From Candidatus Woykebacteria bacterium (lineage in GTDB: Bacteria; Patescibacteriota; Microgenomatia; Woykebacterales; RBG-16-39-9b), in the NCBI GenBank assembly GCA_040876265.1, contig JBBDPN010000002.1, forward strand, positions 236,330-300,329: a stretch of DNA of 64,000 bases. Reading direction: 5' to 3'. Below are positions 1 through 63,123 of the stretch, in pieces. Position 1 is the first letter of the stretch; every line of letters starts with the position of its first letter. The translations under genes were made by a program, and so were the position numbers. The notes under the pieces were generated by a model. That model did not search any database and was not told where the DNA came from. It saw nothing but the letters and a program-made list of their open reading frames with translations.

Positions 1-219
1 GAATTGAACGGTCTGGGTCTAAAAGTCGAACTACTTGGCGCCACTAAAGGAGCAAAAGAAGAGGAGCCCAAAGATGAAGAGGCAAAGGACGTAGAGCACC
101 AAGCGAAAGAGTTAGCACAGGCAGCAGGCGAAGAGGAGGTAATAAAAGGCGAGGAAATGAGAAAAGAATTCGAGATAGTCCAGGCCCAGCCACAAGAGGA
201 AGGGAAAACAAATGAGTGA
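1..219 (+). CDS. rpoB: DNA-directed RNA polymerase beta subunit, C-terminal fragment (gene continues upstream of window)
   Basis: Frame +1 is open from nt 1. ...ELNGLGLKVELLG followed by an acidic/KE-rich tail is typical of the beta C-terminus. Its stop overlaps the rpoC start (ATGAGTGA). Confidence 0.6.
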   Translation, partial: ELNGLGLKVELLGATKGAKEEEPKDEEAKDVEHQAKELAQAAGEEEVIKGEEMRKEFEIVQAQPQEEGKTNE

Positions 220-5148: not shown

Positions 5149-6327
5149 GTGGGTAAACTTCGAAGAGAGGTGGTAGTGATAGTAATAAACATATTGAAAT
5201 ACTTTGCCGTTGTAGCATTTGTACTGCTGGCAATAGTAGCCCTTGCTGCGAACGTGAAATTACCACAAGGCTACAATCTATATGTAGTCCAAAGCGGTAG
5301 TATGGAACCCCAGATCGGGGTGGGTTCGGTAGTGCTTACCAAACCAACTGCTGATTTTGTCGCCCCCATGCAAACACCGAGATTTATTCGGGGTGATGTC
5401 ATCACCTTTTCAGCGGGCGATTCATTGGTTAGTCACAGAGTGATCGAAACTGTGGAAGAAGAGCGCCAATTTTTCTATAAAACACGCGGCGACGCCAACG
5501 AAGAAGCTGATAAAAATCTTGTTGCAGAAGAAAACGTAGTTGGAAAGGTGTACCTGACTGCTCCTCATGTTGGCCGATTTGTCAGTTTTGCTAAACAACC
5601 TCTTGGTTATTTTCTGATGATTTTTATTCCTTCTGTTTACGTAATTATCTCCGAAGCTTGGGCAATAATTTCCGAATTGCGAAAGGTTCGCAGGAAAATC
5701 CCGGCAACTAGCGCCGCTTTACCAATTGCGTTGGTTTTTGCAGGAAGCCTTTATCTTGTCGGTAGCACAGCTGCTTTTTTCTCTGATACAGAGACAAGCA
5801 CAGGCAACATTTTCCAAGCAGCCGATTCTTTTTGTGAAAAAGGTACACTCTTTATGATTGGAGATCAGGAATCCAGCCAACTTGATAATCCGGTTGATGA
5901 ACTCAACTGGCCTGGTGCATTTGGGATATTTCCCGCCTTCCCAGACCCGTTTGTAGTTGGTACAAATCTTGATAGCGAATTTCCTTACAACTCCAATTTT
6001 AGCAACGGTTACGCTACTGACTTCGATGTAAATTTCGAATTTACCAGCGGTAGCACAGCTGATGCGCGACTTATGTTTTCTTGGGGGCCTGGACGTTCAG
6101 GAACGGAGGAAAAAGAAGTGTTTCTGGATGCGGGAAGTATCTTTACTGTCACAAGGACAGGGGCTTCCGTTGCCGGTTGGTCGGAAGATATGCAAAGATT
6201 TGAGGAAACAGCTGATTTTTCGCTGAGTCCTGGAAGTCACGCCCTAAATTTCCAACATTTAAGCGGTAACGGTACAATTTGGGATTTTGTGAAAGTAGAG
6301 ATACTAGACTGTAATCCACAGGAATAA
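5149..6327 (+). CDS. sipW: SipW-type (archaeal/ER-type, S26B) signal peptidase fused in frame to a secreted domain carrying its own SipW-cognate signal peptide
   Basis: GTG start. N-terminal TM, then VVQSGSMEPQIGVGSVVLTKP...GDVITF...SHRVIE...TRGDANEEAD, which aligns with B. subtilis SipW including the catalytic Ser in SGSMEP, then a C-terminal TM. With no stop codon it continues RKVRRK-IPATSAALPIALVFAGSLYLVGSTAAFFSDTETSTGNIFQAAD plus about 190 aa of unknown domain. Confidence 0.8.
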   Translation: MGKLRREVVVIVINILKYFAVVAFVLLAIVALAANVKLPQGYNLYVVQSGSMEPQIGVGSVVLTKPTADFVAPMQTPRFIRGDVITFSAGDSLVSHRVIETVEEERQFFYKTRGDANEEADKNLVAEENVVGKVYLTAPHVGRFVSFAKQPLGYFLMIFIPSVYVIISEAWAIISELRKVRRKIPATSAALPIALVFAGSLYLVGSTAAFFSDTETSTGNIFQAADSFCEKGTLFMIGDQESSQLDNPVDELNWPGAFGIFPAFPDPFVVGTNLDSEFPYNSNFSNGYATDFDVNFEFTSGSTADARLMFSWGPGRSGTEEKEVFLDAGSIFTVTRTGASVAGWSEDMQRFEETADFSLSPGSHALNFQHLSGNGTIWDFVKVEILDCNPQE

Positions 6328-7454: not shown

Positions 7455-8315
7455 ATGCGGGGTTTGTTAGCAGTACTTGTTTTCCTTTTCTTTGGCCTCA
7501 CCTTTCCCATAGCAGTCTTTACTTACGCTGTTACTACAGTTGTAAACCCTTCCTACGTAAAATCCCAACTTGGGAATTCCGAAATTTATGAAGTAGCCGC
7601 TGATCAGATTCCAAATCTTATTGATAGAGAGGAGGAACACGATGAGAAGCGAGTGAAAGATCCGACCGAAGAGAAGTTTAAAAAAATAATACTTCAGGAA
7701 GTTGACGGAAAATATCTGCAGAGTAAAGTCGAGCCTTTTGTAGACGATACTTTTTCGTGGCTCGCAAGAGAGCGACAAGAGCCACCACAAATTAGTTTTG
7801 CCGATTTAGCGGAAAGAGCTGAAAAATTGGTAAAACAACCACTGCCAACTGATATAGAGAAGACACTCTCCGAGCCCTTTAAACTTGAGCCAGATAATGC
7901 CAACGCAATAAAAGATTGGTACAGATGGTTTACGCTGACACCACTTATCTTTGGTATCATCAGCGTCCTACTTCTAGTGGGGTTGTTTTTATTAGTAAAG
8001 GGATGGAGATCGAGATTGAGAAGAGTAGCGCTAGCTATCTTTCTGCCCACATTTTTTGGGTTTTTGGGGGTTGGTGTGGGTTTGTTCCTGGGAAGGATAC
8101 TCTCTGGTATTGCTAGTGGGTTGGTAGCCGATTCACGCCTGCCCGATTTGCAGGTACCAGTAGAAGAGATAGTTGTGAGTATTTCAGAAGATATAACTAG
8201 AACTTTACTAATTATTTACGCGGTCGCCCTGGTGGTAGCAATTATCCTATTTATTTCCTCGTTTTTTGTAGACAGGGAGTCCAGACTTTCTAAAGAGGCA
8301 GTTGATAAAAAGTAA
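7455..8315 (+). CDS. Hypothetical membrane protein (N-terminal TM, acidic soluble domain, 3 C-terminal TMs)
   Basis: 286 aa ORF with hydrophobic segments. No recognised family. Confidence 0.45.
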   Translation: MRGLLAVLVFLFFGLTFPIAVFTYAVTTVVNPSYVKSQLGNSEIYEVAADQIPNLIDREEEHDEKRVKDPTEEKFKKIILQEVDGKYLQSKVEPFVDDTFSWLARERQEPPQISFADLAERAEKLVKQPLPTDIEKTLSEPFKLEPDNANAIKDWYRWFTLTPLIFGIISVLLLVGLFLLVKGWRSRLRRVALAIFLPTFFGFLGVGVGLFLGRILSGIASGLVADSRLPDLQVPVEEIVVSISEDITRTLLIIYAVALVVAIILFISSFFVDRESRLSKEAVDKK

Positions 8316-13317: not shown

Positions 13318-13426
13318 GACTCACCTCCTTCTTCCAGCTTCTTTCTGTTTGAGCAGATAATAACATATTTTGTGTCGGGTTCCAAACTCTCGTTTTTTAG
13401 CCGTAAATATGCTAAAGTTGGTGTCC

Positions 13427-13975
13427 ATGAACAAAAAGATTTTGATTCCGGGTCTGTTGATGATAATTGTTTTGGTTGCCGCCGCTTTTGTATGGTTTGG
13501 CAGGAAACAAACTACCGACACCAAGCCTTCAGTCTCAAATTTTGATGAGTGTGCCGCCGCCGGCTATTCGGTATTGGAAAGCTATCCTGCGCGATGTGTA
13601 ACGCCTGATGGTAAATCTTTCACCCAAGATATTGGTAATGAACTGGAAAAGCGAGATTTGATCAAAATCGAAAATCCTCGGCCCAACGCAACTATCAAAA
13701 GCCCGCTAACCATCAAAGGTAAAGCTCGGGGTAGCTGGTTTTTCGAGGCTTCATTTCCAATCAAAATTTATGATGGCAACGGTAAACTTTTGGGAACTGC
13801 CGCCGCTCAAGCTCAAGGGGAGTGGATGAGCAGCGAATTTGTAGATTTTATAGCTACTCTAGAGTTTGAGAAGCCAAAAACAAGTAAAGGAGAGCTGATT
13901 TTAGAAAAAGATAATCCTTCTGGACTTGACGAAAACGATGATCAACTAAAAATTCCCGTGACTTTCCAACAGTAA
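13427..13975 (+). CDS. Membrane-anchored protein with Gmad2-like immunoglobulin-like domain
   Basis: N-terminal TM (ILIPGLLMIIVLVAAAFVWF). C-terminal KSPLTIKGKARGSWFFEASFPIKIYDGNGKLLGTAAAQAQGEWMSSEFVDF...LILEKDNPSGLDENDDQLKIPV resembles Gmad2 (GerM-associated) domains. Confidence 0.55.
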   Translation: MNKKILIPGLLMIIVLVAAAFVWFGRKQTTDTKPSVSNFDECAAAGYSVLESYPARCVTPDGKSFTQDIGNELEKRDLIKIENPRPNATIKSPLTIKGKARGSWFFEASFPIKIYDGNGKLLGTAAAQAQGEWMSSEFVDFIATLEFEKPKTSKGELILEKDNPSGLDENDDQLKIPVTFQQ

Positions 13976-13986
13976 GCCTACTGTTT

Positions 13987-14325
13987 ATGGCGAAAGATAA
14001 TTCTTTTCATGACTACGTGATGAGTGAAGTTTTCCGGGATATACCAGGTGTTACTTCGCGGCATATGTTTGGCGACTGGGGTCTTTACAAGGATGGTATT
14101 TTCTTTGCACTCATTGCTGACGGTAGGCTTTATTTCAAGGTGGGTGAAAACAACAAAACTGACTTTGAAAAAGCCGGAAGCGAGCCCTTTGAATACACCG
14201 CCAAAGGAAAGAAAATCAAATTGAACTACTACGAACTTCCTGCCGAGGTAATGGAGGATCCAGACCAGATAGTATCCTGGATCGAAAAATCTGTTACCGT
14301 CGCCAAAAACGCTAAAAAAGCCTAG
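13987..14325 (+). CDS. TfoX/Sxy N-terminal domain protein
   Basis: RHMFGDWGLYKDGIFFALIADGRLYFKV fits the TfoX_N core (R.MFG..glY..g..Fa.i.d..LYlK). Confidence 0.6.
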   Translation: MAKDNSFHDYVMSEVFRDIPGVTSRHMFGDWGLYKDGIFFALIADGRLYFKVGENNKTDFEKAGSEPFEYTAKGKKIKLNYYELPAEVMEDPDQIVSWIEKSVTVAKNAKKA

Positions 14326-14373
14326 GTGCAAAATAGCCGATATCTGGCGCCTTTTTTAATTTATAATTAAACA

Positions 14374-15237
14374 ATGAACAGATTTGTACTCGTATTACTC
14401 ACTGGTCTTGCTTTTGGTACCTCGGTAGTGATAACAAGATTTGCTATTAGCGAAATCCCACCGCTTCCACAGGTGGGCTTCCGCTTACTTATTGCTTCGC
14501 TAGCTTTTCTCTTCACCTTCTTTATCCTTAAAGGAAAACCCCCATCTCAGGGAAGGCAAAGACTGGATATAGCTTTGATAGGTGTTTTTGGTGCGGCGGT
14601 GCCACTGCTTACTTTGACTACTGCTTTGCAATTTGTTTCTAGCGGTATGCTTACGATTTTTATTGCGATGAGTCCTCTTGCCACAGCTCTTGTAGCTCAT
14701 TTTTTACTTTCGGATGAGAGGCTGAAAGCGGCTAAAATAATCGGGCTGCTTCTGGCTACAAGTGGGGTACTGTTTCTCATTTTTACCAATACTTCTGGGA
14801 TACCAAAAGTCACCTTGGATATCCGTGGGCCGCTGCTTTCCCTTATTGGGGTGGTAGCCATTGCTTTTTCTACCGTTTATACCCGGGCGCGTCTAAAAGA
14901 AGTACGGCCTTTGGTTGTAAGTACTTGGCAAACTTTGGCAGGTGCTTTAGTAGTGGCCCCATTTGCCTTTTGGTTGGTGAGACCAGATCTTTCGCTGGTG
15001 ACTTGGAAAGGTTGGCTGGCGGTGACTTATAATGGTTTGGTCGGATCATTTATTGCTTTTTGGCTTACCTTTACCATCATCAAAAGATACGGAGCAACTT
15101 CTTCAGTTTTACCTACCTACCTGATGCCGGCGGTGGCGGGGATATTTGGTACGGTTTTACTGGGAGAGCTAATCACTTTCCCGTTGCTCATCGGAGCGGT
15201 TATCATACTGGCCGGTGTCTTTTTAGCCAAGAAGTAG
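14374..15237 (+). CDS. EamA/DMT-superfamily transporter (10 TM)
   Basis: Two EamA-like 5-TM halves. 287 aa, wholly hydrophobic. Confidence 0.8.
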   Translation: MNRFVLVLLTGLAFGTSVVITRFAISEIPPLPQVGFRLLIASLAFLFTFFILKGKPPSQGRQRLDIALIGVFGAAVPLLTLTTALQFVSSGMLTIFIAMSPLATALVAHFLLSDERLKAAKIIGLLLATSGVLFLIFTNTSGIPKVTLDIRGPLLSLIGVVAIAFSTVYTRARLKEVRPLVVSTWQTLAGALVVAPFAFWLVRPDLSLVTWKGWLAVTYNGLVGSFIAFWLTFTIIKRYGATSSVLPTYLMPAVAGIFGTVLLGELITFPLLIGAVIILAGVFLAKK

Positions 15238-16369
15238 AAAACAAATAAGTCAGAAGTTTGGATCGCCGCGAACTTAAGAGCTATGTAGGCTGGTGAGCCA
15301 ATTGATGAAAGGTAGGCGGTGCTTTTCAATTGATAAATTATCCAGAGCGATATTTTTCTTTGAGGCAAAATCGGATATTGATTGAAAATTTGCAGTTAGG
15401 TCCAAATCGAGGATGTGAGCGTTATGAAATTCGATAAAGTCCTTTATATTTTCGGTCACTACCTCCATTGTACCTCATTAATTTAGATAAGCAATGGATC
15501 AATAAATAACTCCCACCTTGCTAAATATTATCGGTTCTGTTAGTATTAGATCGAATCCAAAAAAGGACAACCCTTCGGGGCTGTTTTTTGTTGGGGATAA
15601 ATAAGTGTGAAGTAGTGAAGGGAGACAGAGTGACAAACGCAAATGGTGGTGAGCCCCAGGCTATCAAGTACGCTGGTACAGTGGTTTCGGTGGAGACAGC
15701 CGGCAAACTCTTGTCCGTGCAACAGCGAATCCAGGGACGTGTTGGCAAAACCATGCTCCCGATCGAGGCTCTTCCCCTTGGTAATTCCTACTGCCTGTAC
15801 TGCACCGCTCCTTGCTTTGTCCTCCCGGAGAAAGGTGTCTCACCAGATCTGCCGGATTTCTGCACTGGTTGCGACGATCTCTTCGCGATGGGAGTGTTGT
15901 AGAGAGAAAAAGGAGAGGTGAAAAGGGACCTCCCGGCTTTTGAGAAGTAAAAGCTTGGGAAGTTCGGGTGATACACTTCGTGTCGTTGCATCTTTGTAAC
16001 GGCACGCTTCCCTCTTTCAATCCGCCAAAATTCGCTTTCCATCTTCAAATCCCCAAAACTTTTAGCCCACGTTAGTGGTCGCAGAGCGCGAAGTGGTCTT
16101 TACTGAGTAAATCGAAGGATTGCTTTCCAGCCTCAATTAGCTTGTGCTGAACGTAGAGAAGTAGTAAAAGCCTCTTGCTTATTCAGGTAATTTATCCTGA
16201 GCTAAAAAATAGTGAAGGAGCCTACCTAGTTTAACCTAGAAAAAGTAACCCAAACAGTCATGGAGTTTGCTTTTCTTTCTCCAACCAACCATAATTAACC
16301 AATATGGCTCATTCCCAAGGTAAACAAAGACGCGAAATCAAAAAACCAAAGCAAAGCAAAAAGAAATAA

Positions 16370-16525
16370 ATGACGAGCGAAGTAAGATGTCCTTATTGCA
16401 ATAGTAGAGATTTATCCGTAATCCCTACTCCTGGTGATACTGCACCCACCTCCATCACCTACAAATGCCAAATGTGCCACCGCACTTTTAGTAAATCCTC
16501 TTCTGAGGAAAGTAAAGAGGGGTAG
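16370..16525 (+). CDS. Small zinc-ribbon protein (51 aa), not in ORF track
   Basis: MTSEVRCPYCNSRDLSVIPTPGDTAPTSITYKCQMCHRTF... has CPYC...CQMC. Preceded by an overlapping 21-aa ultra-basic mini-ORF (MAHSQGKQRREIKKPKQSKKK, ATAAATG junction). Confidence 0.4.
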   Translation: MTSEVRCPYCNSRDLSVIPTPGDTAPTSITYKCQMCHRTFSKSSSEESKEG

Positions 16526-16585
16526 AAACTCCCTTGGCGCTTAGAAATAGAAGAAATTATCAAAAGATGGTACACTAAAATTTAG

Positions 16586-17068
16586 ATGGGAAATTTTTTC
16601 AAAAAATACTGGTGGGTACTTGTCATCATCATTTTTCTTCTTATCCTTATAATTATATGGCTTCTCTTTCTTGGTAAAGAAAAGAAAGAGTCAGAAGTAA
16701 CTGCACCGCAGTCCACTCAAAGTACCGAAGCCACAAAATCAACCATACCCAGCAGTCAAATCACTCAAAACGAGAGTGATGAGGATCTACTGAAAAAAGC
16801 CGTTTCGGAAAAGACAGGGATAGCTCTAGATATAATAGTGGTTGATGTTTCCACAAACACCGGTAAATACGCCAAGGGACTGGTAACCTCCAAAGGAGAA
16901 ACGGTCGGTGGTGGTTATTGGCTCGCCGTGAAAGAGAATGGCAAATGGACCGTGGTTTTTGACGGACAAAGCACCCCAGAATGTTCCCTAGTGGATCCTC
17001 CAGGTTTCCCCGCCAGCATGGTGCCAGAGTGTTTTGACTCTTCCGGAAATATAGTAACCAGGACATAA
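16586..17068 (+). CDS. Hypothetical membrane-anchored extracytoplasmic protein
   Basis: N-terminal TM (WWVLVIIIFLLILIIIWLLFL), S/T-rich linker, and a globular domain with 2 Cys pairs. Confidence 0.5.
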   Translation: MGNFFKKYWWVLVIIIFLLILIIIWLLFLGKEKKESEVTAPQSTQSTEATKSTIPSSQITQNESDEDLLKKAVSEKTGIALDIIVVDVSTNTGKYAKGLVTSKGETVGGGYWLAVKENGKWTVVFDGQSTPECSLVDPPGFPASMVPECFDSSGNIVTRT

Positions 17069-17120
17069 TCCCACGCTTCTTTGTTTGAATTGGGCATCTC
17101 CTGTAATAAAATAAATATTT

Positions 17121-17741
17121 GTGGATTTGCAAGAGCAGAAAGAAGTATCCGCTCATTTTGAGCGGATGTTTACAAAAAACATAAAACCTTGGCGGGAGCA
17201 CGGCCCAGAACCACTACTACTTTCATTCCTGAAGCTTTTAAAAGAAAAATCTACAGACGATAAAGGTCTCAATGTGTTGGATATAGGTTGCGGTGATGGT
17301 TGGGTCTCACTTCTAGCTGCCCGAGAAGGAAACATGGCGTGGGGTATTGACTCGTCAGAGACCGCAATCGCCCAGGCAAAGGAAACTGCTAAAAATTCTT
17401 CCTTTGCTGACAGAGTCCATTTTCAAGTTGGAGACGCTTTATATTTACCTTTTGAAAAAGCACAGTTCTACGCTCTGATCGACAGAGGTCTCTTTCACCA
17501 CATATTACCGGAAAATAGGAGTCTTTATTTAAAAAATATCCGGCGAGTTTTAAAACCAAAAAGCTATTTTTATCTCTCTGTCTTTAGCGACAAAAATTCT
17601 CCTGGGTTTGGACAACTTTTTAACCAGCTGCTCATCGAGAAAATATTTGGTAAGGATTTTACAGTTCTTAAGTGTTATGAAGATCCGTTTCCTCCTTACG
17701 TCCCGGCCCATCTCCTCCATTTTATCTTTGAACGAAAATAG
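17121..17741 (+). CDS. Class I SAM-dependent methyltransferase
   Basis: Motif I VLDIGCGDG, with acidic post-I and motif II context. GTG start. Confidence 0.75.
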   Translation: MDLQEQKEVSAHFERMFTKNIKPWREHGPEPLLLSFLKLLKEKSTDDKGLNVLDIGCGDGWVSLLAAREGNMAWGIDSSETAIAQAKETAKNSSFADRVHFQVGDALYLPFEKAQFYALIDRGLFHHILPENRSLYLKNIRRVLKPKSYFYLSVFSDKNSPGFGQLFNQLLIEKIFGKDFTVLKCYEDPFPPYVPAHLLHFIFERK

Positions 17742-17781
17742 ATTGGCTCTCTTGCTGCTTTTCTTGATACAATAAATTTAG

Positions 17782-18555
17782 ATGTTTCCGTTTAGAGGCG
17801 ATCGTTTCCGAAATTTACGTAAGTTTAACCTAATTATGGCCGGCTTGCACGGCGTGCAAGGCTTGGCCATACTGCTTCTCAGCACCAATTTTTCCCTCCC
17901 GGTGTCCGCCGGTTACCTGACGTTTAATTTTACCAACCAAACACTGGAACCGGCCAGCAAGATCTTATTCAATCTGCCAATTGCCCCTCTCGTAGTTATC
18001 TTTTTCTTTCTTTCCGCCGGTGCCCATTTAATCATTGCAACTGCCTGGCAGAGAGGCTACGAGGAAGATTTGAAGCGCGGCATGAACCGGGCTCGTTGGG
18101 TTGAATACTCATTATCTGCCAGCGTCATGATGGTGGCCATTGCCATGCTAGTTGGGATTTACGAACTGGGCCAACTGATCATGATCTTTGCCCTGGTGGC
18201 GTTTATGAACCTGATGGGACTTGCGATGGAAGTGCACAATCAGACCACCAAAGAAACAAACTGGATTGCGTTTATCATTGGTTCTTTGGCCGGTATCGTT
18301 CCCTGGGTTGCGGTTGGGCTGTATTTCTGGGCTGCGGCCGTCTTTGGAAAAGGAGATATACCCACTTTCGTCTATTGGATTTACATCTCAATCTTCATCT
18401 TTTTCAACTGCTTCGCCATCAACATGTATTTGCAATACATGAAGTTAGGCCGTTGGAAAGATTATCTTTTTGGAGAAAAAGTTTATATTTTACTTAGTTT
18501 ATTTGCTAAATCCGCTCTAGCCTGGCAAGTCTTTGCCGGTACACTGCGTCCCTAA
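17782..18555 (+). CDS. Heliorhodopsin (inverted-topology microbial rhodopsin)
   Basis: Near-colinear with heliorhodopsin 48C12: RWVEYSLSASVMM (counterion Glu in TM3), AGIVPW, ISIFIFFNCFAINMYLQYMK, SLFAKSALAWQVFAG (Schiff-base Lys in TM7). 7 TM. Confidence 0.92.
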   Translation: MFPFRGDRFRNLRKFNLIMAGLHGVQGLAILLLSTNFSLPVSAGYLTFNFTNQTLEPASKILFNLPIAPLVVIFFFLSAGAHLIIATAWQRGYEEDLKRGMNRARWVEYSLSASVMMVAIAMLVGIYELGQLIMIFALVAFMNLMGLAMEVHNQTTKETNWIAFIIGSLAGIVPWVAVGLYFWAAAVFGKGDIPTFVYWIYISIFIFFNCFAINMYLQYMKLGRWKDYLFGEKVYILLSLFAKSALAWQVFAGTLRP

Positions 18556-18563
18556 AGTTTCTT

Positions 18564-18836
18564 ATGAGCTATGAGATTGGTAGTCGGTATCCAAAACCTG
18601 GAGATAAAGTCCGCATTGTTGAAAAAAAGAACTATTCCAGCGGTAAATTAACCGAAGGGGTGGTGAAAGACGTGCTGACCGGTAAAAGATTTCACCCAAG
18701 AGGTCATAAGGTACGGTTAATTAATGGAATTATTGGCCGAGTCCAAGAATTTTCTGATGAGCAGCAGAGCGATCCACCTTCTATCGAAGAAACACCGTCC
18801 GTTCCTTACACACCAAGCGAGGACGACCTAGCTTAA
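18564..18836 (+). CDS. YwbE-family (DUF2196) small protein
   Basis: 90 aa. GKLTEGVVKDVLT...HPRGHKVRL..G.IGRV is characteristic of YwbE/TIGR03833. It lies 8 nt after the heliorhodopsin stop. Confidence 0.65.
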   Translation: MSYEIGSRYPKPGDKVRIVEKKNYSSGKLTEGVVKDVLTGKRFHPRGHKVRLINGIIGRVQEFSDEQQSDPPSIEETPSVPYTPSEDDLA

Positions 18837-19450
18837 TCCACGATCAAGATAGCTCTAGCTGGTGAGCCATCAAGGCCGGTGAGATTTAGGGGCAAACATA
18901 GAAAACGATACTCTCCTGCTTTTACTTTCGAAAGGTCGAGTCCTTCCAGGATCAAAATTTCTTTCTCGAGTAATTTATTGTGGACCGGATGACCTACTGA
19001 TCCGGAAGCTTCAATACCAATATAATCTATTCCGACCAAAACTACTCCTTGGTAAGCCAAATATTCGGCGGCCGAAAGCCCCAGTGTAGTGATACTTTTT
19101 GTGTAGGGCTGCTTTAGCAATCCCGAATTGTTGGTTTTAAATAAAACTAATGACGAGGTTATTTTTCCACTGATATGTTTTTTCTCAATTATATCAACGT
19201 TTTTTGGTATTTCTAATACTTGAGCAATCCCCATACATTTAGCCAGATCCGTCTGCTCAGCCGCTTTCCCTTTTTTCAAAAAATGACTAGGCGCGTCTAT
19301 GTGAGTACCGGTATGGGAGCCAATGGTAATTTTCGAGCTACGAACACCATTTTTCTCAAAGGTTCGATTGGGCTCAATCTTCAAAAAATTTTCAGAGGGG
19401 TGAGCCAAAGTCCCATTATTAATAGGAAGAGAAATATCAATGATTTTCAT
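18833..19450 (-). CDS. Putative cyclase / arylformamidase (kynurenine formamidase-like) family
   Basis: GSHTGTHIDAPSHF, the HxGTHxDxPxH motif. Confidence 0.75.
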   Translation of the reverse strand: MKIIDISLPINNGTLAHPSENFLKIEPNRTFEKNGVRSSKITIGSHTGTHIDAPSHFLKKGKAAEQTDLAKCMGIAQVLEIPKNVDIIEKKHISGKITSSLVLFKTNNSGLLKQPYTKSITTLGLSAAEYLAYQGVVLVGIDYIGIEASGSVGHPVHNKLLEKEILILEGLDLSKVKAGEYRFLCLPLNLTGLDGSPARAILIVD

Positions 19451-20355
19451 TTTTTGGTTACCACGTGTCCGCCGAATTGATTGCGCAGAGCCGAAACTAC
19501 TTTGCCAGTGTAGCTTGGTTTACTTTGAGAGGCCTCTCTAAATTTTACCGACCCTTCGATAATTGGCGCCGGAATGCCAAGTTCTTTGGCTGTTTTTGCG
19601 GTCCATTTGCCTTCGCCACTTTGAGAAATGGATCCGGAAATTCCCTCCAAATCCTCGCCGTAGGTTTTGTAAGCAGACTTGAGCCAGTTTATAAGTCGAG
19701 ATTCTATTACGGTTCCGTGGCTATAAATTTCTGCAATTGCTCTTAAATCGAGTTTAAACGGTGCCGCTTTCAAAACTTCAAATCCTTCCCCAATTGCCTG
19801 CATCATACCGTATTCGATACCGTTGTGGACCATTTTCACAAAGTGCCCGGCTCCGACTGGCCCCATGTATCTATGGCCACTGGGCACCGCTAAATCTTTG
19901 AAAAGAGGTTCGTATTTTTTGAAAATCTCTAAATCTCCTCCAACCATAATCGAAGCACCACTCCTGGCACCAGTCGGGCCGCCGGAAACGCCTACATCCA
20001 AAAAATTAATCCCTTTCCCTTTCAATTTCTTGTATCTAGCAATGCTTTCTTTGTAAAACGAATTGCCACCATCGATTATTGCATCGCCTTTTTCTAGAAG
20101 AGACGCTAAATTGCCTTCGCCAAAGATCACATCATCCACTGGCTTTCCGGCCGGGACCATGATCCAAACCGTGCGAGGAGTAGATAAATGTTTTGCGAGA
20201 TCAGCACAAGTAAAAGCAGTGTTAGCTCCAGCCTTGGCCGCCTCTTTAATCGGTTCCGGGCTTCGGTTGCAGGCAACCACGTCGTACCCTTTATCGAGTA
20301 ACCGCAGCACCATATTGAAGCCCATTTTTCCCAAACCAAAATAGCCAATTTGCAT
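19447..20355 (-). CDS. gnd: 6-phosphogluconate dehydrogenase, short (about 300 aa, YqeC/GntZ-like) decarboxylating form
   Basis: N-terminal Rossmann IGYFGLGKMGFNM. GxxGxGHxVKMVHNGIEY 6PGD signature. Confidence 0.85.
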   Translation of the reverse strand: MQIGYFGLGKMGFNMVLRLLDKGYDVVACNRSPEPIKEAAKAGANTAFTCADLAKHLSTPRTVWIMVPAGKPVDDVIFGEGNLASLLEKGDAIIDGGNSFYKESIARYKKLKGKGINFLDVGVSGGPTGARSGASIMVGGDLEIFKKYEPLFKDLAVPSGHRYMGPVGAGHFVKMVHNGIEYGMMQAIGEGFEVLKAAPFKLDLRAIAEIYSHGTVIESRLINWLKSAYKTYGEDLEGISGSISQSGEGKWTAKTAKELGIPAPIIEGSVKFREASQSKPSYTGKVVSALRNQFGGHVVTKK

Positions 20356-20408
20356 AAGGTTAACTCCTAATATAAAACAGCATCTATTCTAAATCAATTC
20401 CTACGCTG

Positions 20409-20437
20409 TTGACAGCTACCTTGGCTTTGTATATAAT
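20409..20437 (+). promoter_or_regulatory. Consensus sigma70 promoter (TTGACA-17 nt-TATAAT) for the str operon
   Basis: TTGACA at 20409-20414 and TATAAT at 20432-20437, in the gnd/rpsL divergent intergenic region. Confidence 0.55.
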
Positions 20438-20585
20438 CAAGCGCGATCTTCAACAGAGTCAAAGTAGTACTAGTAGATTGCTCGCAGTCGGTCTCTCGTT
20501 TAAATTATCGTTAAATCATTCGAACCCAATCTGCTTCGCAATTTTTAAGATGTTTTCTGTTCGCTGATCACTGTTCACTGATAAA

Positions 20586-20999
20586 ATGCCAACTATAAAT
20601 CAACTTGTCCGAAGGGGCAGAAAAAAAGTAGTAAAGAAGATAAAAGCCACGGCGCTGCGGGGGTCTCTTCACGCTGCCAAAAGGAGAATGACCCCAACCA
20701 CCAACCCTCAAAAAAGAGGGGTGGCAGTAATAGTCAAGACGATGACGCCAAAGAAACCTAACTCAGCATTGCGAAAAGTAGCCAGAGTCCGTCTTTCAAA
20801 CCGAAAAGAAGTAACAGCCTATATTCCTGGTATTGGACATAACCTTCAAGAGCATTCGATAGTTTTGGTAAGAGGTGGCCGGGTAAAAGATCTTCCTGGG
20901 GTGAAATATCACGTCATCCGTGGCCACTATGATACTGGTGGAGTAGAAGGTAGAAAACAGGGTAGAAGTTTGTATGGTAGTAAGAAATCAAAAGAATGA
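20586..20999 (+). CDS. rpsL: 30S ribosomal protein S12
   Basis: [21 protein letters not shown]. Confidence 0.97.
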
Positions 21000-33136: not shown

Positions 33137-33733
33137 ATGTACGAATATTTTAACGAAGAAGAATTTGAGGAAAAGATTGTCCAGGTAAATAGAGTATCCA
33201 AAAAAACAGCTGGCGGCAACAAAATTGGTTTCTCGGTTCTTGTAGTAGTTGGTGATAGAAAAGGTCGTGTTGGTGTAGGATTGGGTAAAGCCCCTTCAGT
33301 GCAAGATTCCATTAGAAAAGGCTCACTTTACGCAAAAAAACATCTAATCTCAATCCCAATGGTTGGTACCACTATTCCCCACGAGGTTTTTATAAAGAGA
33401 GGGGCAGCAAAAGTTCTACTCAAACCAGCGTCAAAAGGTACCGGTGTTATTGCTGGAGGTGCTGTCCGCGCTGTTGTTGAGGCAGCTGGTATTCACGACA
33501 TCCTATCTAAGGTGCTCGGTACAAGTAATCAAGCGTCAAACGTCTACGCTACAATGGAAGCATTAAAAAAACTAGCTCCAGTCAGACAAAGGGAGCTAGC
33601 TGCCGTGCGGGGAGAAGAAAAACCAATCGAAAAAAGGCAGACAAGCACCAAAGCAAAGACGCCGCTTAAAAAACCTTTGGGAAAAAGAACAACAAGACTA
33701 AAGGCGAAAGCGGCTTCCAAAGGAAAGAATTAA
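33137..33733 (+). CDS. rpsE: 30S ribosomal protein S5 with C-terminal basic extension
   Basis: [24 protein letters not shown] and S5 C-domain. About 40 aa lysine-rich tail. Confidence 0.94.
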
Positions 33734-33735
33734 TT

Positions 33736-34179
33736 ATGAATCTACACGAACTGACAAAAATAAAAACTAAGAAGAAGCTAAGAGTTGGTCGGGGCGAGTC
33801 CAGTGGCAAGGGTAAAACAGCTGGTCGTGGGATGAAAGGCCAGAAGAAAAGGGGAAAGGTAAAAATTGGATTTGAAGGAGGGCAACTACCAATTTATCAA
33901 AGATTGCCCCAAAAAAGAGGGCTGGGTAACATCAATAACAGCACAAAAATTACGCTGACAACTAAGCAGCTTAATCAACTGCCCGCAGGGTCCACGGTAA
34001 ACGAAAAAACACTAATAGAAACTGGTTTTCTACCAAAAAATAAAGCTAGAGCGAAAGTAAGAGTTGTTCTTAAGGGTAAGCTCGAGAAAAAGTTGATATT
34101 AGAAATACCAGTCAGTAAAAAAGCAAAAGCCATGATTGAAAAAGTAGGGGGCAAAATTATTTATGAAAACCCTGCTTAA
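33736..34179 (+). CDS. rplO: 50S ribosomal protein L15
   Basis: KKKLRVGRGESSGKGKTAGRGMKGQ. Directly follows rpsE, so there is no rpmD. Confidence 0.94.
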   Translation: MNLHELTKIKTKKKLRVGRGESSGKGKTAGRGMKGQKKRGKVKIGFEGGQLPIYQRLPQKRGLGNINNSTKITLTTKQLNQLPAGSTVNEKTLIETGFLPKNKARAKVRVVLKGKLEKKLILEIPVSKKAKAMIEKVGGKIIYENPA

Positions 34180-56380: not shown

Positions 56381-57544
56381 GTGAAGAAATTATTCATCTC
56401 CATCCCAATATTCGCCCTTCTTTTCTTAGTTCCATCAGCACAAGCTCAGGATAATGAAACAGATCGCGAAACAAAGATCGTTACTCTACCGGTTGGAGAA
56501 GTAGTAAACCGGGATTACTTCGCCTTTGGTGATGTCGTTGAGGTTTCCGGAACGGTAAACGGTGATGTATACGCCTTCGGTGGCCAAGTACTTGTGGACG
56601 GGGCCGTAAACGGAGATTTAATTACTGCTGGTGGCACGCTTACTGTTTCTGGTGACGTATCGCAGGATTTGCGAGCCGGCGGAGGCCAAGTCACCATTAG
56701 TGGAGACATTGGTAGGAATGTAACAGTTGGTGGAGGAAACGTAGAGTTTACTAGCGACGCAAGTGTCCGAGGTAGTGTTTTAGCAGGGGCTGGAAACCTC
56801 ACTCTCGCTGCACCCATTGGTAGCAACGTAAAGATCGGTGCGGGTAATTTAACTATTTCCAGTAAAGTCGATGGAGATGTAGAAGCAGGAGTTGGTATGC
56901 TGAGATTAACCTCAAGGGCTCGGGTAGATGGAGATCTTACCTACTGGAGTGATCAAAATGCATCGGTGGATGGTAATGCGTTGGTTTCTGGAGAGATCAC
57001 CAAAAAGTCGGCCCAAGGAATTTCGAAGCCGTCTTTACAAGGAGTTCTAGGTGGATTTGCAGCGTTTAACATATTCACTACAATCATTGGTTTTGTTTCA
57101 ACATTTATTCTTGGACTTCTCTTGATAAAATTTCTACCAAAGTTTTCATCTGACACCGTAAATACGTTAAGCAAAAAGCCACTGGCTTCTCTGGGTGTCG
57201 GCTTTTTGGCTTTGTTGGTGACACCAATAGCTTTCCTAATTTTACTAGTTACTGTCGTAGGGATACCTATCGCCTTTATATTAATCGCGCTTTATCTAAT
57301 TAGTTTGTATCTGGCTCGTCTCTTCGTTATGTTTTGGGTTGGTAAGGCAATATCTACCCGGACCGGTAGGGCGCCTCACGAGGTATGGGCCTTTATCGTA
57401 GGATTGATTATTTATTACATAGTAACGTTGATACCAGTAGTTGGTGGCATTACGACTTTCCTCGTGATACTCTTTGGCCTTGGCGCAGCCCTGATCACCA
57501 AAAGAAATACCTATCTTACCGCAAGAAAAAGCAATCTGTACTAA
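56381..57544 (+). CDS. Membrane protein with signal peptide, extracytoplasmic bactofilin-like (DUF583-type) beta-helical repeat domain and 4-TM C-terminal anchor
   Basis: Signal peptide MKKLFISIPIFALLFLVPSAQA. At least 8 repeats of G-x-V-x-G-D-[VL] (VSGTVNGDVYAFGGQVLVDGAVNGDLITAGGTLTVSGDV...). The C-terminal 170 aa has 4 TM. Confidence 0.6.
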   Translation: MKKLFISIPIFALLFLVPSAQAQDNETDRETKIVTLPVGEVVNRDYFAFGDVVEVSGTVNGDVYAFGGQVLVDGAVNGDLITAGGTLTVSGDVSQDLRAGGGQVTISGDIGRNVTVGGGNVEFTSDASVRGSVLAGAGNLTLAAPIGSNVKIGAGNLTISSKVDGDVEAGVGMLRLTSRARVDGDLTYWSDQNASVDGNALVSGEITKKSAQGISKPSLQGVLGGFAAFNIFTTIIGFVSTFILGLLLIKFLPKFSSDTVNTLSKKPLASLGVGFLALLVTPIAFLILLVTVVGIPIAFILIALYLISLYLARLFVMFWVGKAISTRTGRAPHEVWAFIVGLIIYYIVTLIPVVGGITTFLVILFGLGAALITKRNTYLTARKSNLY

Positions 57545-60519: not shown

Positions 60520-60585
60520 TTACGGCTCGAACAATTAACGCTCACTCTCTTGACAAGAAATCCTCCAAAGTTTAAAAATTCTTGT

Positions 60586-61644
60586 ATGCTGGCCAAAGTT
60601 ATTTCTGGAGCGACCGTTGGTTTGGACTCTGTTCCAATCGAAGTAGAAGTAGATATTGCGGCGCAAGGATTACCAGCTTTCAATATTGTCGGTCTGCCGG
60701 ACAAAGCTGTGGAGGAAAGTAAGGAAAGAGTAAGAGCCGCTTTGAAAAATGTCGGGGCTGAATTCCCGGCCAGAAGAATTACTGTAAATCTTGCTCCAGC
60801 CGATCTACCGAAAGAAGGACCCGCCTACGATCTGCCAATTGCCATAGGGATATTAATTGGTTCGGGGCAACTCTCTACAGAAATCTCAGATGCAGTCTTT
60901 GCCGGTGAGCTTTCCCTTGACGGCAATTTGCGTAGTACCGCCGGTCTTTTACCGATAGCGATGATGGCTAAAGAAAAAGGATTTAAGCGACTATTTCTCC
61001 CGGCTATTAATGCGAAAGAAGCATGTGTAGTGCAAAAGGTTAGTATTTTCGCTATCAACAATATAATTGATCTCTTCCACTTTTTATCTGGGAACAAAAG
61101 AATTCACGCCGCACCAGCAACAAAAATAGATTTGGATGGAGTCATTAAGTACGAATTTGACATGAAAGAAATTCGAGGCCAGGAAACGGCGAAGCGGGCT
61201 CTTGAGATTGCAGCGGCCGGAGGTCACAACGTACTACTAAAAGGTCCACCAGGTTCTGGAAAGACTCTTCTTGCCCGGGCCTTTCCCAGTATTTTACCTA
61301 GGCTTGCCGCGGAAGAAGCTCTCGAGGTAACCAAAATTTATTCCATTCTCGGCCTCGTAAATCCAGCCGATCCAGTTATTAGGATCAGACCGTTTCGTAG
61401 TCCTCACCATTCCGCGAGTGCGATAGGATTAATTGGTGGGGGTACTCATCCTAAACCTGGAGAAATTTCACTTGCCAACCGAGGCGTTTTATTTTTAGAT
61501 GAGTTTCCAGAATTTCCAAGACATGTTCTAGAAAGCCTTCGTGGGCCCCTGGAAGATGGGGTTGTTACCGTCTCTAGAGCCTCAGCCAGTCTTTCCTTCC
61601 CGGCGAATTTTACCCTCATTGCGGCCGCCAACCCGTGCCCTTAA
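60586..61644 (+). pseudogene. comM: ComM/YifB Mg-chelatase-like AAA+ ATPase, truncated after NPCP (C-terminal roughly 140 aa missing)
   Basis: N-terminal Lon-like domain ([29 protein letters not shown]), Walker [12 protein letters not shown] stops at [12 protein letters not shown], inside the canonical NPCPCG motif. The downstream DNA does not continue comM. Confidence 0.7.
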
Positions 61645-62953: not shown

Positions 62954-63123
62954 AGGTTTTTCCCTTTTCCTTCTCTATAGCAGGGTTGTCCGCAATACTT
63001 ACTTATCTGTTCGTAGCCATTGGCTCTCGGATAGTACTGTTTACCGCAGTTTTTACAGACTTTAATTATATGTGCCCGATTTGGCTTGTCGTAGTTTAAA
63101 ATATTAGAGTCGAGATTTTTCAT
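62950..63123 (-). CDS. Small zinc-ribbon protein (57 aa), translationally coupled to dcm (TAATG), not in ORF track
   Basis: MKNLDSNILNYDKPNRAHIIKVCKNCGKQYYPRANGYEQISKYCGQPCYREGKGKNL has CKNC...CGQPC. Its ATG overlaps the dcm stop by 1 nt. Confidence 0.4.
   Translation of the reverse strand: MKNLDSNILNYDKPNRAHIIKVCKNCGKQYYPRANGYEQISKYCGQPCYREGKGKNL

What the first reader, a model, noticed from the sequence alone, without database searches (positions are those of the whole stretch)
17782..18555. Heliorhodopsin gene
The 257 aa protein aligns essentially end to end with characterised heliorhodopsin 48C12. It includes the TM3 counterion Glu in RWVEYSLSAS, AGIVPW, and the TM7 retinal Lys in SLFAKSALAWQ. 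Heliorhodopsins have inverted topology, long photocycles and still-unclear function. Their distribution has been linked to monoderm envelopes. A copy in a reduced CPR-like genome that probably cannot make retinal implies light sensing using scavenged chromophore. It is flanked by a SAM-methyltransferase upstream (40 nt gap) and a YwbE-family gene 8 nt downstream, suggesting an operon.
Basis: partly seen in the sequence, partly recalled or inferred. Interest (0 to 1): 0.75.

Follow-up and report, generated by a model that had tools for sequence, protein, structure and literature searches.

The report
Ordinary heliorhodopsin gene in CPR bacterium
This is a genuine, intact heliorhodopsin (a light-sensing membrane protein of still unclear function) in a tiny Woykebacteria-type bacterium, but the same protein is already correctly named in GenBank, such genes are already well documented in these bacteria, and the suggested three-gene operon is not conserved.

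Summary
ORF 17782..18555 (+, 257 aa) is a full-length heliorhodopsin: Pfam PF18761 at 315 bits, NCBIfam HeR equivalog at 331 bits, and 56.6% identity to the solved TaHeR. The AlphaFold model superposes on TaHeR at TM 0.89-0.92. H23, H82, counterion E108, S239-x-x-x-K243 and the lateral fenestration residues are present. Charge distribution predicts the inverted N-in topology, and the gene is under strong purifying selection.

It is not new. The identical protein is in NCBI as "heliorhodopsin HeR [Candidatus Woykebacteria bacterium]". More than 7,300 homologues score E<=1e-20, and 560+ species-representative genomes encode relatives, mostly CPR among the best 80. CPR heliorhodopsins and retinal scavenging by CPR and by TaHeR are published.

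The methyltransferase-HeR-YwbE spacing (40 nt, 8 nt) is real, but the arrangement is absent from 80 species-representative loci and from the five closest relatives. A close homologue of the methyltransferase occurs elsewhere without a HeR. No retinal or carotenoid genes were found in the window.

Most likely it is a non-transporting photosensor loaded with exogenous retinal, with an unknown partner. Interest is low.

The parts
17782..18555 (+). Heliorhodopsin (HeR) gene, 257 aa. It has 7 TM helices plus an ECL1 beta-hairpin. Key residues are H23, H82, counterion E108, S239-L-F-A-K243 (Schiff-base Lys), and fenestration residues F164/S168/G171/F208/N209/A212.
   Evidence: ORF. Pfam PF18761 at 315 bits. 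NCBIfam NF038020 equivalog at 331 bits. PDB 6is6 at E 1.3e-83. Residue mapping. AF2 model with pLDDT 86, and Foldseek TM 0.89/0.92 to 6is6. pN 0.14-0.18 against pS 0.78-0.94.
17121..17741 (+). Adjacent upstream gene (40-nt gap): a 206-aa generic class I SAM-dependent methyltransferase with unknown substrate. A functional link to HeR is not supported by conservation.
   Evidence: Pfam Methyltransf_25/31/11 and TPMT-like hits. No NCBIfam model reaches its cut-off. The best PDB matches are uncharacterised small methyltransferases 6mro and 8gdu. It is absent next to HeR in relatives. A close homologue (E 1.7e-78) lies next to a Zn-ribbon gene without HeR in L098.
18564..18836 (+). Adjacent downstream gene (8-nt gap): a 90-aa DUF2196 / YwbE-family protein of unknown function. 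Its stop overlaps the end of the convergent cyclase/arylformamidase-like gene (18833..19450, -). A functional link to HeR is not supported by conservation.
   Evidence: Pfam PF09962 at 71.7 bits. NCBIfam TIGR03833 at 68.1 bits against a cut-off of 63.4. No PDB homologue. There are 0 hits within 6 kb of HeR in 80 loci. The only other co-occurrence is about 6 kb away, in L085/L097.

Best explanation
The ORF is a bona fide, functional heliorhodopsin of the TaHeR-like branch, carried by a Woykebacteria (Microgenomates-group CPR) genome.

Shown here: family membership by sequence and fold; all chromophore-site residues (Schiff-base K243 in an SxxxK motif, single counterion E108, H23/H82); the TM5/TM6 lateral fenestration residues; a charge distribution that predicts N-in topology; and strong purifying selection.

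Inferred by homology to TaHeR and 48C12: the apoprotein binds all-trans-retinal covalently at K243. The retinal is probably taken up from outside through the fenestration, because CPR genomes generally lack retinal synthesis and none is seen in this window. It would absorb green light, run a slow photocycle without net ion transport, and in its long-lived intermediate modulate a partner protein through its cytoplasmic face. That would make it a photosensor or regulatory 'helper' rhodopsin.

The partner in this organism is unknown. The two flanking genes are candidates by proximity only.
For: Identity: PF18761 at 315 bits over the full profile. NF038020 'heliorhodopsin HeR' equivalog at 331 bits against a cut-off of 100. 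PDB hits are only heliorhodopsins, with 6is6 at E 1.3e-83. 56.6% identity to TaHeR and 43.3% to a 48C12-type chain. The AF2 model (pLDDT 86, pTM 0.82) has 7 helices plus the ECL1 beta-hairpin, and superposes on TaHeR at TM 0.89/0.92 and rmsd 1.9 A, against about 0.6 TM and 9-17% identity for type-1 rhodopsins.

Residues: H23, H82, E108, S239, K243, F164, S168, G171, F208, N209 and A212 map onto TaHeR H23, H82, E108, S234, K238, Y164, C168, G171, F203, N204 and A207.

Topology: K+R counts are 4, 5 and 4 in the N-terminus, loop 91-105 and loop 221-233, against 0-1 in the opposite loops.

Constraint: pN 0.14-0.18 against saturated pS 0.78-0.94 for five relatives.

Host: NCBI names the identical protein as from Candidatus Woykebacteria, lineage Patescibacteria/Microgenomates. 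S5 is directly followed by L15 with no L30.

Retinal: no carotenoid or blh domains among the window genes scanned. Exogenous retinal capture through a hole in TaHeR, and retinal scavenging by CPR, are described in PMC9296517. The fenestration residues are described in bioRxiv 10.1101/2025.11.27.691015.

Regulatory-helper precedents: glutamine synthetase (PMC9529153), photolyase (PMC9769723) and an ABC transporter (PMC11109279).
Against: No experiment exists on this protein, so retinal binding, absorption maximum, photocycle and lack of transport are all extrapolated from proteins 43-57% identical. Absence of retinal synthesis is shown only for 64 kb of a genome whose contig is at least 302 kb. 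No partner can be named, because the neighbourhoods of related HeRs are highly heterogeneous (top neighbour family in 9 of 86 loci). The sample's habitat, and hence its light exposure, could not be determined. F241, two residues before the Schiff-base Lys, is unique among the 120 closest cluster representatives and could alter its properties.
Confidence: 0.8

Rival explanations
1. MT-HeR-YwbE is a dedicated light-regulated operon. HeR binds the adjacent SAM methyltransferase or the YwbE/DUF2196 protein and modulates it in the light, as AbHeR does with glutamine synthetase or OcHeR with an ABC transporter.
For: All three genes are on the same strand with gaps of 40 and 8 nt. No terminator-like site is predicted in either gap. 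The unit is bounded downstream by a convergent gene. A promoter-like site lies just upstream of the MT at 17085-17112. There is published precedent for HeRs regulating products of adjacent genes (PMC9529153, PMC11109279).
Against: The arrangement was not found in any other genome examined. There are 0 DUF2196 hits within 6 kb of HeR in 80 species-representative loci. It is also absent from the five closest relatives at 72-78% identity (L082, L084, L085, L086, L087). The only MT hits (L005, L006) are 344-373-aa CFA-synthase-type enzymes, not orthologues. A close orthologue of the window's MT (E 1.7e-78) lies directly upstream of the Zn-ribbon gene with no HeR (L098). Neither family is among the ten published HeR-neighbour groups (PMC11109279) or mentioned in Bulzu's gene-context section. 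The promoter-like count is not above shuffles (12 against 8.1 +/- 3.2).
Confidence: 0.08
2. It is a light-gated or light-driven proton transporter, like the viral heliorhodopsin V2HeR3, rather than a sensor.
For: Some heliorhodopsins do transport protons (PMC9448325). The overall fold and the counterion are shared across the family.
Against: Its nearest characterised relative by a wide margin is TaHeR (56.6% identity), which together with 48C12 is reported not to transport ions (established knowledge: Pushkarev 2018, Shihoya 2019). Transporting HeRs are described as a viral subfamily that lacks the fenestration/carotenoid site. This protein keeps that site (F164, G171, F208, N209, A212).
Confidence: 0.04
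3. It is primarily a two-chromophore light harvester: the fenestration recruits an exogenous xanthophyll antenna as well as retinal, as proposed for HeRs generally in a 2025 preprint.
For: All positions of the proposed carotenoid-binding site are present: opposing aromatics F164/F208, small S168 and A212, G171 and N209. The monoderm-like CPR envelope would expose it to exogenous carotenoids.
Against: In the sections read the proposal rests on a crystal structure, sequence analysis and docking, not on measured carotenoid binding. It says what is bound, not what the output is, so it complements the sensor model rather than excluding it. Nothing here was tested beyond residue conservation.
Confidence: 0.06
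4. It is a relic: an intact but unused gene in an organism that never sees light or retinal.
For: Woykebacteria were first described from subsurface samples (own knowledge), and the habitat of this sample is unknown. HeR presence is patchy among relatives of the same region; for example L089 has Zn-ribbon and TM160 but no HeR.
Against: The ORF is intact and every functional residue is conserved. Non-synonymous divergence is about 5-fold lower than the saturated synonymous divergence against five relatives.
Confidence: 0.02

Closest known systems
TaHeR, heliorhodopsin of Thermoplasmatales archaeon SG8-52-1 (PDB 6is6, 7u55, 7clj)
   Same: 56.6% identity over residues 9-257. The predicted fold is the same, at TM 0.89/0.92 and rmsd 1.9 A. 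H23, H82, E108 and the SxxxK Lys are identical, and the fenestration is equivalent. Its host is likewise thought to lack retinal synthesis, and it captures external retinal (PMC9296517, citing Shihoya 2019).
   Different: The host is bacterial (CPR) rather than archaeal. There is a 5-residue insertion in the TM5-TM6 extracellular loop. Substitutions are Y164F, C168S and V236->F241. The window protein has not been characterised experimentally.
Heliorhodopsin 48C12 (freshwater actinobacterial fosmid; PDB 6su3, 6su4, 6uh3)
   Same: The alignment is end to end, at E 1.5e-51 and TM 0.87-0.88. The counterion Glu, the Schiff-base Lys and the topology are the same.
   Different: Identity is only about 42-43%.
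Published CPR/Patescibacteria heliorhodopsins (Chiriac et al. 2022, PMC9166423; Bulzu et al. 2021, PMC8612252)
   Same: The family and host radiation are the same. Those surveys found HeRs in Saccharimonadia, Dojkabacteria, ABY1, Microgenomatia and others, with SxxAK motifs. The closest database relatives of the window protein are CPR HeRs at 54-79% identity.
   Different: The TM7 motif here is SLFAK, whereas the commonest motifs reported are SLVAK, SLIAK and SFVAK. The oxidative-stress genes that those papers found beside some HeRs (glutaredoxin, GSHPx, catalase) are not adjacent here, although AhpC (L085) and MsrA (5 loci) flank some relatives.
Regulatory 'helper' heliorhodopsins with operon partners (AbHeR-glutamine synthetase, TfHeR-photolyase, OcHeR-OmrDE ABC transporter)
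   Same: This is the proposed working mode: a non-transporting HeR whose light-activated state modulates a partner protein (PMC9529153, PMC9769723, PMC11109279).
   Different: None of those partner genes, and none of the ten published neighbour groups, flanks this HeR. Its neighbours (a generic MT and DUF2196) are not conserved with HeR.

Membership tests
Heliorhodopsin (Pfam PF18761 / NCBIfam NF038020) | Full-length match to the family profile above the curated threshold | tested here: met
   PF18761 at 315.2 bits (cut-off 26.7), profile 1-242/242. NF038020 equivalog at 331.4 bits (cut-off 100), profile 1-244/244.
Heliorhodopsin (Pfam PF18761 / NCBIfam NF038020) | Retinal Schiff-base lysine in TM7 within an SxxxK motif (type-1 rhodopsins have DxxxK) | tested here: met
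   S239-L-F-A-K243 aligns to TaHeR S234/K238. S and K are invariant in the 120 closest relatives.
Heliorhodopsin (Pfam PF18761 / NCBIfam NF038020) | Single Glu counterion in TM3, plus the conserved His pair (TaHeR E108, H23, H82) | tested here: met
   E108, H23 and H82 are present at the homologous positions.
Heliorhodopsin (Pfam PF18761 / NCBIfam NF038020) | 7-TM fold with a long ECL1 beta-hairpin, superposable on solved HeRs and distinct from type-1 rhodopsins | tested here: met
   The AF2 model (pLDDT 86) has strands 38-49 and 54-66 plus 7 helices. Foldseek gives TM 0.89/0.92 to 6is6 and 0.88 to 6su3, against about 0.6 to type-1 rhodopsins.
Heliorhodopsin (Pfam PF18761 / NCBIfam NF038020) | Inverted membrane topology (N-terminus cytoplasmic) | tested here: met
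   This is a prediction only, from the positive-inside rule. K+R counts are 4 (N-terminus), 5 (loop 91-105) and 4 (loop 221-233), against 0-1 in the alternate loops and the C-terminus. It has not been verified experimentally.
Heliorhodopsin (Pfam PF18761 / NCBIfam NF038020) | Lateral fenestration between TM5 and TM6 giving outside access to the retinal pocket | tested here: met
   Sequence-level test only. F164/S168/G171/F208/N209/A212 correspond to TaHeR Y164/C168/G171/F203/N204/A207 (residues defined in the preprint).
Heliorhodopsin (Pfam PF18761 / NCBIfam NF038020) | Binds all-trans-retinal, has a slow (seconds) photocycle, and shows no net ion transport | not testable with these tools
   This needs expression, spectroscopy and transport assays.
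Type-1 microbial rhodopsin (Pfam PF01036) | Match to the bacteriorhodopsin-like profile, with DxxxK in TM7 | tested here: not met
   There is no PF01036 hit at E<=0.01. The motif is SxxxK. Structural matches to type-1 rhodopsins reach only TM about 0.6 and 9-17% identity.
HeR-partner operon groups (ten groups of PMC11109279; glutaredoxin/GSHPx group of PMC8612252) | A recurrent partner gene co-oriented with HeR and immediately adjacent to it | tested here: not met
   The neighbours here are a generic MT and DUF2196. Neither is in the published groups, and neither recurs next to related HeRs.
Proton-transporting viral heliorhodopsins (V2HeR3 type) | Membership of the viral subfamily that lacks the fenestration, with measured photocurrents | not tested
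   No direct comparison with the V2HeR3 sequence was made. Indirectly, the fenestration motif is retained and the nearest relatives are cellular CPR and archaeal HeRs.

The most novel reading that the evidence does not exclude
In this one Woykebacteria lineage the heliorhodopsin may have been recruited into a new three-gene module, in which light controls the adjacent small-molecule SAM methyltransferase and/or the uncharacterised YwbE/DUF2196 protein. That would give DUF2196 its first functional context and add an eleventh HeR-partner class.
Probability: 0.06. Interest if true: 0.5.

Novelty: already known. Interest (0 to 1): 0.15.

Why it matters
It matters little beyond confirming a correct annotation. 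The identical protein is already named heliorhodopsin in GenBank. The presence of heliorhodopsins in CPR bacteria, their link to monoderm envelopes and their reliance on scavenged retinal are all in the literature. Two results here are useful. First, a negative one: the tidy MT-HeR-YwbE spacing is a one-off, not a conserved operon, so it should not be used to infer HeR function. Second, a general picture: HeRs of this CPR/Thermoplasmatales clade sit in fast-changing neighbourhoods with no dominant partner gene. That fits a promiscuous photosensor, or a function needing no dedicated genetic partner. If anyone expresses CPR HeRs, this one carries a unique F241 two residues before the Schiff-base lysine, which might be worth a spectral check.

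Tried and rejected
(1) A conserved MT-HeR-DUF2196 operon. I searched 80 species-representative HeR loci with +/-6 kb flanks, plus five closest relatives, using phmmer with all nine window neighbours. There were no DUF2196, cyclase, 6PGD-like, EamA or TfoX hits, and only two weak MT hits. Those two turned out to be CFA-synthase-type enzymes. Rejected.

(2) A Zn-ribbon partner. The 51-aa Zn-ribbon ORF (16370..16525) has homologues 0.7 and 1.7 kb from HeR in L084 and L085. That echoed the Zn-ribbon-HeR fusions of Bulzu et al.. However, a metagenome scan for Zn-ribbon relatives gave 18 loci, of which only one carries a HeR, and that one is the same contig as L085. The Zn-ribbon gene instead travels with the TM160 gene and, in L098, with the MT. 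The Cys spacing also differs (CxxC-21..24-CxxC against the published CxxC-17-CxxC). Rejected as residual synteny.

(3) Any recurrent neighbour in the clade. Clustering all ORFs within 2.5 kb of HeR in 86 loci gave a top family present in only 9 loci (an ABC ATPase), a RumA/TrmA-like methyltransferase directly downstream in 7, and MsrA upstream in 5. No general partner emerged.

(4) Retinal or carotenoid genes in the window. None was found by Pfam among about 45 genes. The rest of the genome could not be reached.

(5) Sample provenance. A literature search for the run and assembly accessions found nothing.

(6) An exact dN/dS. Synonymous sites are saturated, so only pN/pS could be given.

(7) A horizontal-transfer signature. 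GC content around the gene (0.42-0.44) matches the window, so nothing suggests recent acquisition.

Full report
OBSERVATION. The ORF exists exactly as described: 17782..18555 on the + strand, ATG start, 257 aa. The three quoted motifs are at residues 105-114 (RWVEYSLSAS, E108), 170-175 (AGIVPW) and 239-249 (SLFAKSALAWQ, K243). The upstream gene (17121..17741, +) is a class I SAM-dependent methyltransferase separated by 40 nt. The downstream gene (18564..18836, +) matches DUF2196 (PF09962, 71.7 bits) and NCBIfam TIGR03833 'YwbE family protein' (68.1 bits, cut-off 63.4), and is separated by 8 nt.

WHAT IT IS. The protein matches Pfam Heliorhodopsin PF18761 over the entire profile (E 3.3e-94, 315 bits). 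It also matches the NCBIfam equivalog NF038020 'heliorhodopsin HeR' at 331 bits against a cut-off of 100. Against all PDB sequences the only hits are heliorhodopsins. The best is TaHeR from a Thermoplasmatales archaeon (6is6, E 1.3e-83), followed by 48C12 (6su3, E 1.5e-51, query 9-257 against chain 9-255). Identity is 56.6% to TaHeR and 43.3% to a 48C12-type chain.

An AlphaFold2 model built from 21 homologues (pLDDT 86, pTM 0.82) shows seven helices and the long ECL1 beta-hairpin typical of heliorhodopsins. It superposes on TaHeR at TM 0.89/0.92 (rmsd 1.9 A) and on 48C12 at TM about 0.88. Type-1 rhodopsins reach only about 0.6 TM at 9-17% identity. The stated refuter, membership of the type-1 clade, is thus excluded. 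No PF01036 hit appears either.

FUNCTIONAL RESIDUES, TOPOLOGY AND CONSTRAINT. Mapping onto TaHeR gives the following:
- H23, H82 and E108 (counterion) are identical.
- S239 and K243 correspond to TaHeR S234 and K238, the SxxxK Schiff-base motif.
- The six residues that line the lateral fenestration, Y164, C168, G171, F203, N204 and A207 in TaHeR (residues defined in bioRxiv 10.1101/2025.11.27.691015), appear here as F164, S168, G171, F208, N209 and A212.

H82, E108, G171, F208, A212, S239 and K243 are invariant in the 120 closest cluster representatives. Lys+Arg counts are 4, 5 and 4 in the N-terminus, loop 91-105 and loop 221-233, against 0-1 on the other side. This predicts the inverted N-in topology. 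Against five relatives (72-78% aa identity), non-synonymous differences per site are 0.14-0.18 while synonymous sites are saturated at 0.78-0.94. That shows strong purifying selection. One oddity remains: F241, two residues before the lysine, is unique among those 120 sequences (V 106, I 9, T 3, L 1).

HOST AND PRIOR KNOWLEDGE. The identical sequence is in NCBI as 'MAG: heliorhodopsin HeR [Candidatus Woykebacteria bacterium]' on a 302-kb contig. Woykeibacteriota belong to the Microgenomates group of Patescibacteria. Within the window, ribosomal protein S5 (33137..33733) is followed 2 nt later by L15 with no L30 gene. From established knowledge this is a CPR hallmark.

The family is very large. 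More than 7,341 cluster representatives score E<=1e-20. At least 560 stretches in species-representative genomes encode relatives, and the best 80 are mostly Saccharibacteria, Dojkabacteria, WWE3 and Berkelbacteria. Thermoplasmatales, Methanomassiliicoccus, Izimaplasma and Dormiibacterota also appear.

The literature already covers this ground:
- Chiriac et al. 2022 report 115 rhodopsins in 86 CPR genomes, 98 of them heliorhodopsins, including in Microgenomatia (PMC9166423).
- Bulzu et al. 2021 analysed HeR gene contexts, including Patescibacteria (PMC8612252).
- Jaffe et al. 2022 showed that CPR rhodopsin carriers lack blh and bind exogenous retinal quickly. They note that TaHeR belongs to an organism without retinal synthesis and captures retinal through a hole in the apoprotein (PMC9296517).

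The 'scavenged chromophore in a reduced CPR genome' idea is therefore established, not new.

THE OPERON CLAIM. In its favour:
- All three genes are on the same strand with gaps of 40 and 8 nt.
- No terminator-like site falls in either gap.
- A weak promoter-like site lies at 17085-17112.
- A convergent gene closes the unit.

Promoter-like matches are not above shuffles, however (12 against 8.1 +/- 3.2).

Against it:
- I searched 80 HeR loci from other species (+/-6 kb) with all nine window neighbours. There were no DUF2196, cyclase, 6PGD-like, EamA, TfoX, TM160 or Zn-ribbon hits, and only two weak methyltransferase hits.
- Those two hits (L005, L006) are 344-373-aa CFA-synthase-type proteins, not orthologues of the 206-aa window enzyme.
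- The closest relatives on informative contigs have quite different neighbours.
  - L082 (76-77% identity, another Woykebacteria) has antitoxin-HeR-SDR.
  - L084 (75%) has HTH/restriction genes-HeR-PD-(D/E)XK nuclease.
  - L085 (72-73%) has AhpC-HeR-Fic, with a DUF2196 gene about 6 kb away.
  - L087 (72-74%) has HeR-84 aa ORF-HD_4 protein, then the S12/S7 genes about 5 kb on.
  - L086 (78%) has an unrelated 97-aa ORF upstream.
- A close orthologue of the window's methyltransferase (E 1.7e-78) lies immediately upstream of a Zn-ribbon gene with no HeR (L098).
- Clustering every ORF within 2.5 kb of HeR in 86 loci shows no dominant partner. The commonest family, an ABC ATPase, is present in 9 loci. 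A RumA/TrmA-like methyltransferase lies directly downstream in 7, and MsrA lies upstream in 5.
- Neither the methyltransferase nor DUF2196 is among the ten neighbour groups of Cho et al. 2024 (PMC11109279). Neither is mentioned in Bulzu's gene-context section.

Co-transcription in this genome remains possible, but the arrangement cannot be used to infer function. Some regional synteny does persist (Gmad2, EamA and the S12/S7 operon near HeR in L082, L084 and L087). This suggests vertical inheritance of HeR within a region of rapid gene turnover.

A LEAD THAT FAILED. A 51-aa Zn-ribbon ORF (16370..16525) has homologues 0.7-1.7 kb from HeR in L084 and L085. That recalled the Zn-ribbon-HeR fusions in Thermoplasmatales. 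A metagenome scan found 18 loci encoding relatives, and only one holds a HeR; that one is the same contig as L085. The gene instead accompanies the TM160 gene, and in one locus the methyltransferase. I conclude this is residual synteny.

RETINAL SUPPLY. Pfam annotation of about 45 window genes shows ribosomal and translation genes, recA/recX, RNase Y, transporters, G6PD and a 6PGD-like gene, among others. No phytoene synthase, phytoene desaturase, lycopene cyclase or Blh appears. Three ORFs have no Pfam match (5149..6327, 7455..8315, 56381..57544). This is consistent with scavenging but covers only 64 kb.

MECHANISM. Shown here: the gene encodes a constrained, complete heliorhodopsin with an intact chromophore site and fenestration. 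Inferred from TaHeR and 48C12 (established knowledge: Pushkarev 2018, Shihoya 2019): covalent all-trans-retinal at K243 with E108 as counterion, green absorption, a seconds-long photocycle and no net ion transport. The signal would go to a partner through the cytoplasmic face, as shown for glutamine synthetase, photolyase and an ABC transporter in other HeRs (PMC9529153, PMC9769723, PMC11109279). I put about 0.97 on family membership. I put about 0.65 on the sensor/regulator-with-exogenous-retinal mode, with the remainder spread over the rival modes listed and modes not considered. Three rivals were weighed: a dedicated MT/YwbE operon (0.08), a carotenoid-antenna harvester (0.06, partly compatible with the sensor model) and a proton transporter (0.04). 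A relic gene (0.02) is disfavoured by the selection signal.

VERDICT. The operon inference is unsupported by comparative data, and novelty is nil because the protein is already annotated and the biology already published. Interest: 0.15.

Noticed in passing
window 15590-16060 (+): A GC-rich island (0.51-0.56, against 0.34-0.44 in the flanks) lies in the roughly 1.1-kb ORF-poor gap between the EamA and Zn-ribbon genes. The + strand folds better than all 100 shuffles (z -3.11), while the - strand does not (z -0.16). There is no Rfam match at E<=1, no Pfam match for the overlapping 104-aa (+) and 118-aa (-) ORFs, and no blastn match in any fetched locus. It could be an undescribed structured RNA or a small Cys-rich protein gene.
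   Followed up: partly
window 16291-16525 (+): A 51-aa CxxC...CxxC Zn-ribbon ORF (16370..16525) is preceded by about 79 nt that are 76-84% identical in about 15 metagenomic loci. That leader encodes a tiny basic ORF (MAHSQGKQRREIKKPKQSKKK*, 16304-16369). In L084 and L085 the corresponding stretch reads through in frame into the Zn-ribbon ORF. The protein probably has a basic N-terminal extension that a TAA interrupts in this genome. A link to HeR was tested and rejected.
   Followed up: yes
window 18502-18504 (HeR residue F241): The TM7 motif is SLFAK. Phe at this position, two residues before the Schiff-base Lys, occurs in 1 of the 120 closest cluster representatives (V 106, I 9, T 3, L 1). 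It might affect colour tuning or photocycle kinetics.
   Followed up: partly
window 33137-34179: Ribosomal protein S5 is followed 2 nt later by L15 with no L30 gene between them. This matches the known loss of L30 in CPR bacteria and supports the Woykebacteria assignment.
   Followed up: yes
L082 6001-7609 (sibling Woykebacteria MAG GCA_040876345.1): In the 76-77%-identical relative, HeR is followed 23 nt later by an SDR-family oxidoreductase. It is preceded by a PhdYeFM antitoxin-like gene plus a 78-aa ORF, and by an alpha/beta hydrolase. SDR and alpha/beta hydrolase are two of the ten published HeR-neighbour groups (PMC11109279). An SDR next to a rhodopsin might act on retinol/retinal.
   Followed up: no
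L005 4731-5765; L006 4799-5920: In two Saccharibacteria genomes a cyclopropane-fatty-acid-synthase-type methyltransferase (344-373 aa) ends 45-210 nt upstream of HeR on the same strand, and is itself preceded by an HxlR-like regulator. In 7 other loci a RumA/TrmA-like methyltransferase lies directly downstream, and MsrA lies upstream in 5.
   Followed up: partly
window 13370-20999; L084, L087, L082: HeR sits in a homologous macro-region in several relatives: Gmad2 and EamA upstream, and the S12/S7 str operon a few kb downstream. The genes between differ in every genome and include toxin-antitoxin and restriction-modification genes. This looks like a local hotspot of gene turnover.
   Followed up: partly
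window 60550-61644 (+) and 63123-63830 (-): Both genes look truncated. A ChlI/ComM-like Mg-chelatase family ATPase stops at profile position 160 of 207 (364 aa). A C-5 cytosine DNA methylase matches only profile positions 90-323 of 324, so its N-terminus is missing. These could be frameshifts, pseudogenes or mis-set starts.
   Followed up: no
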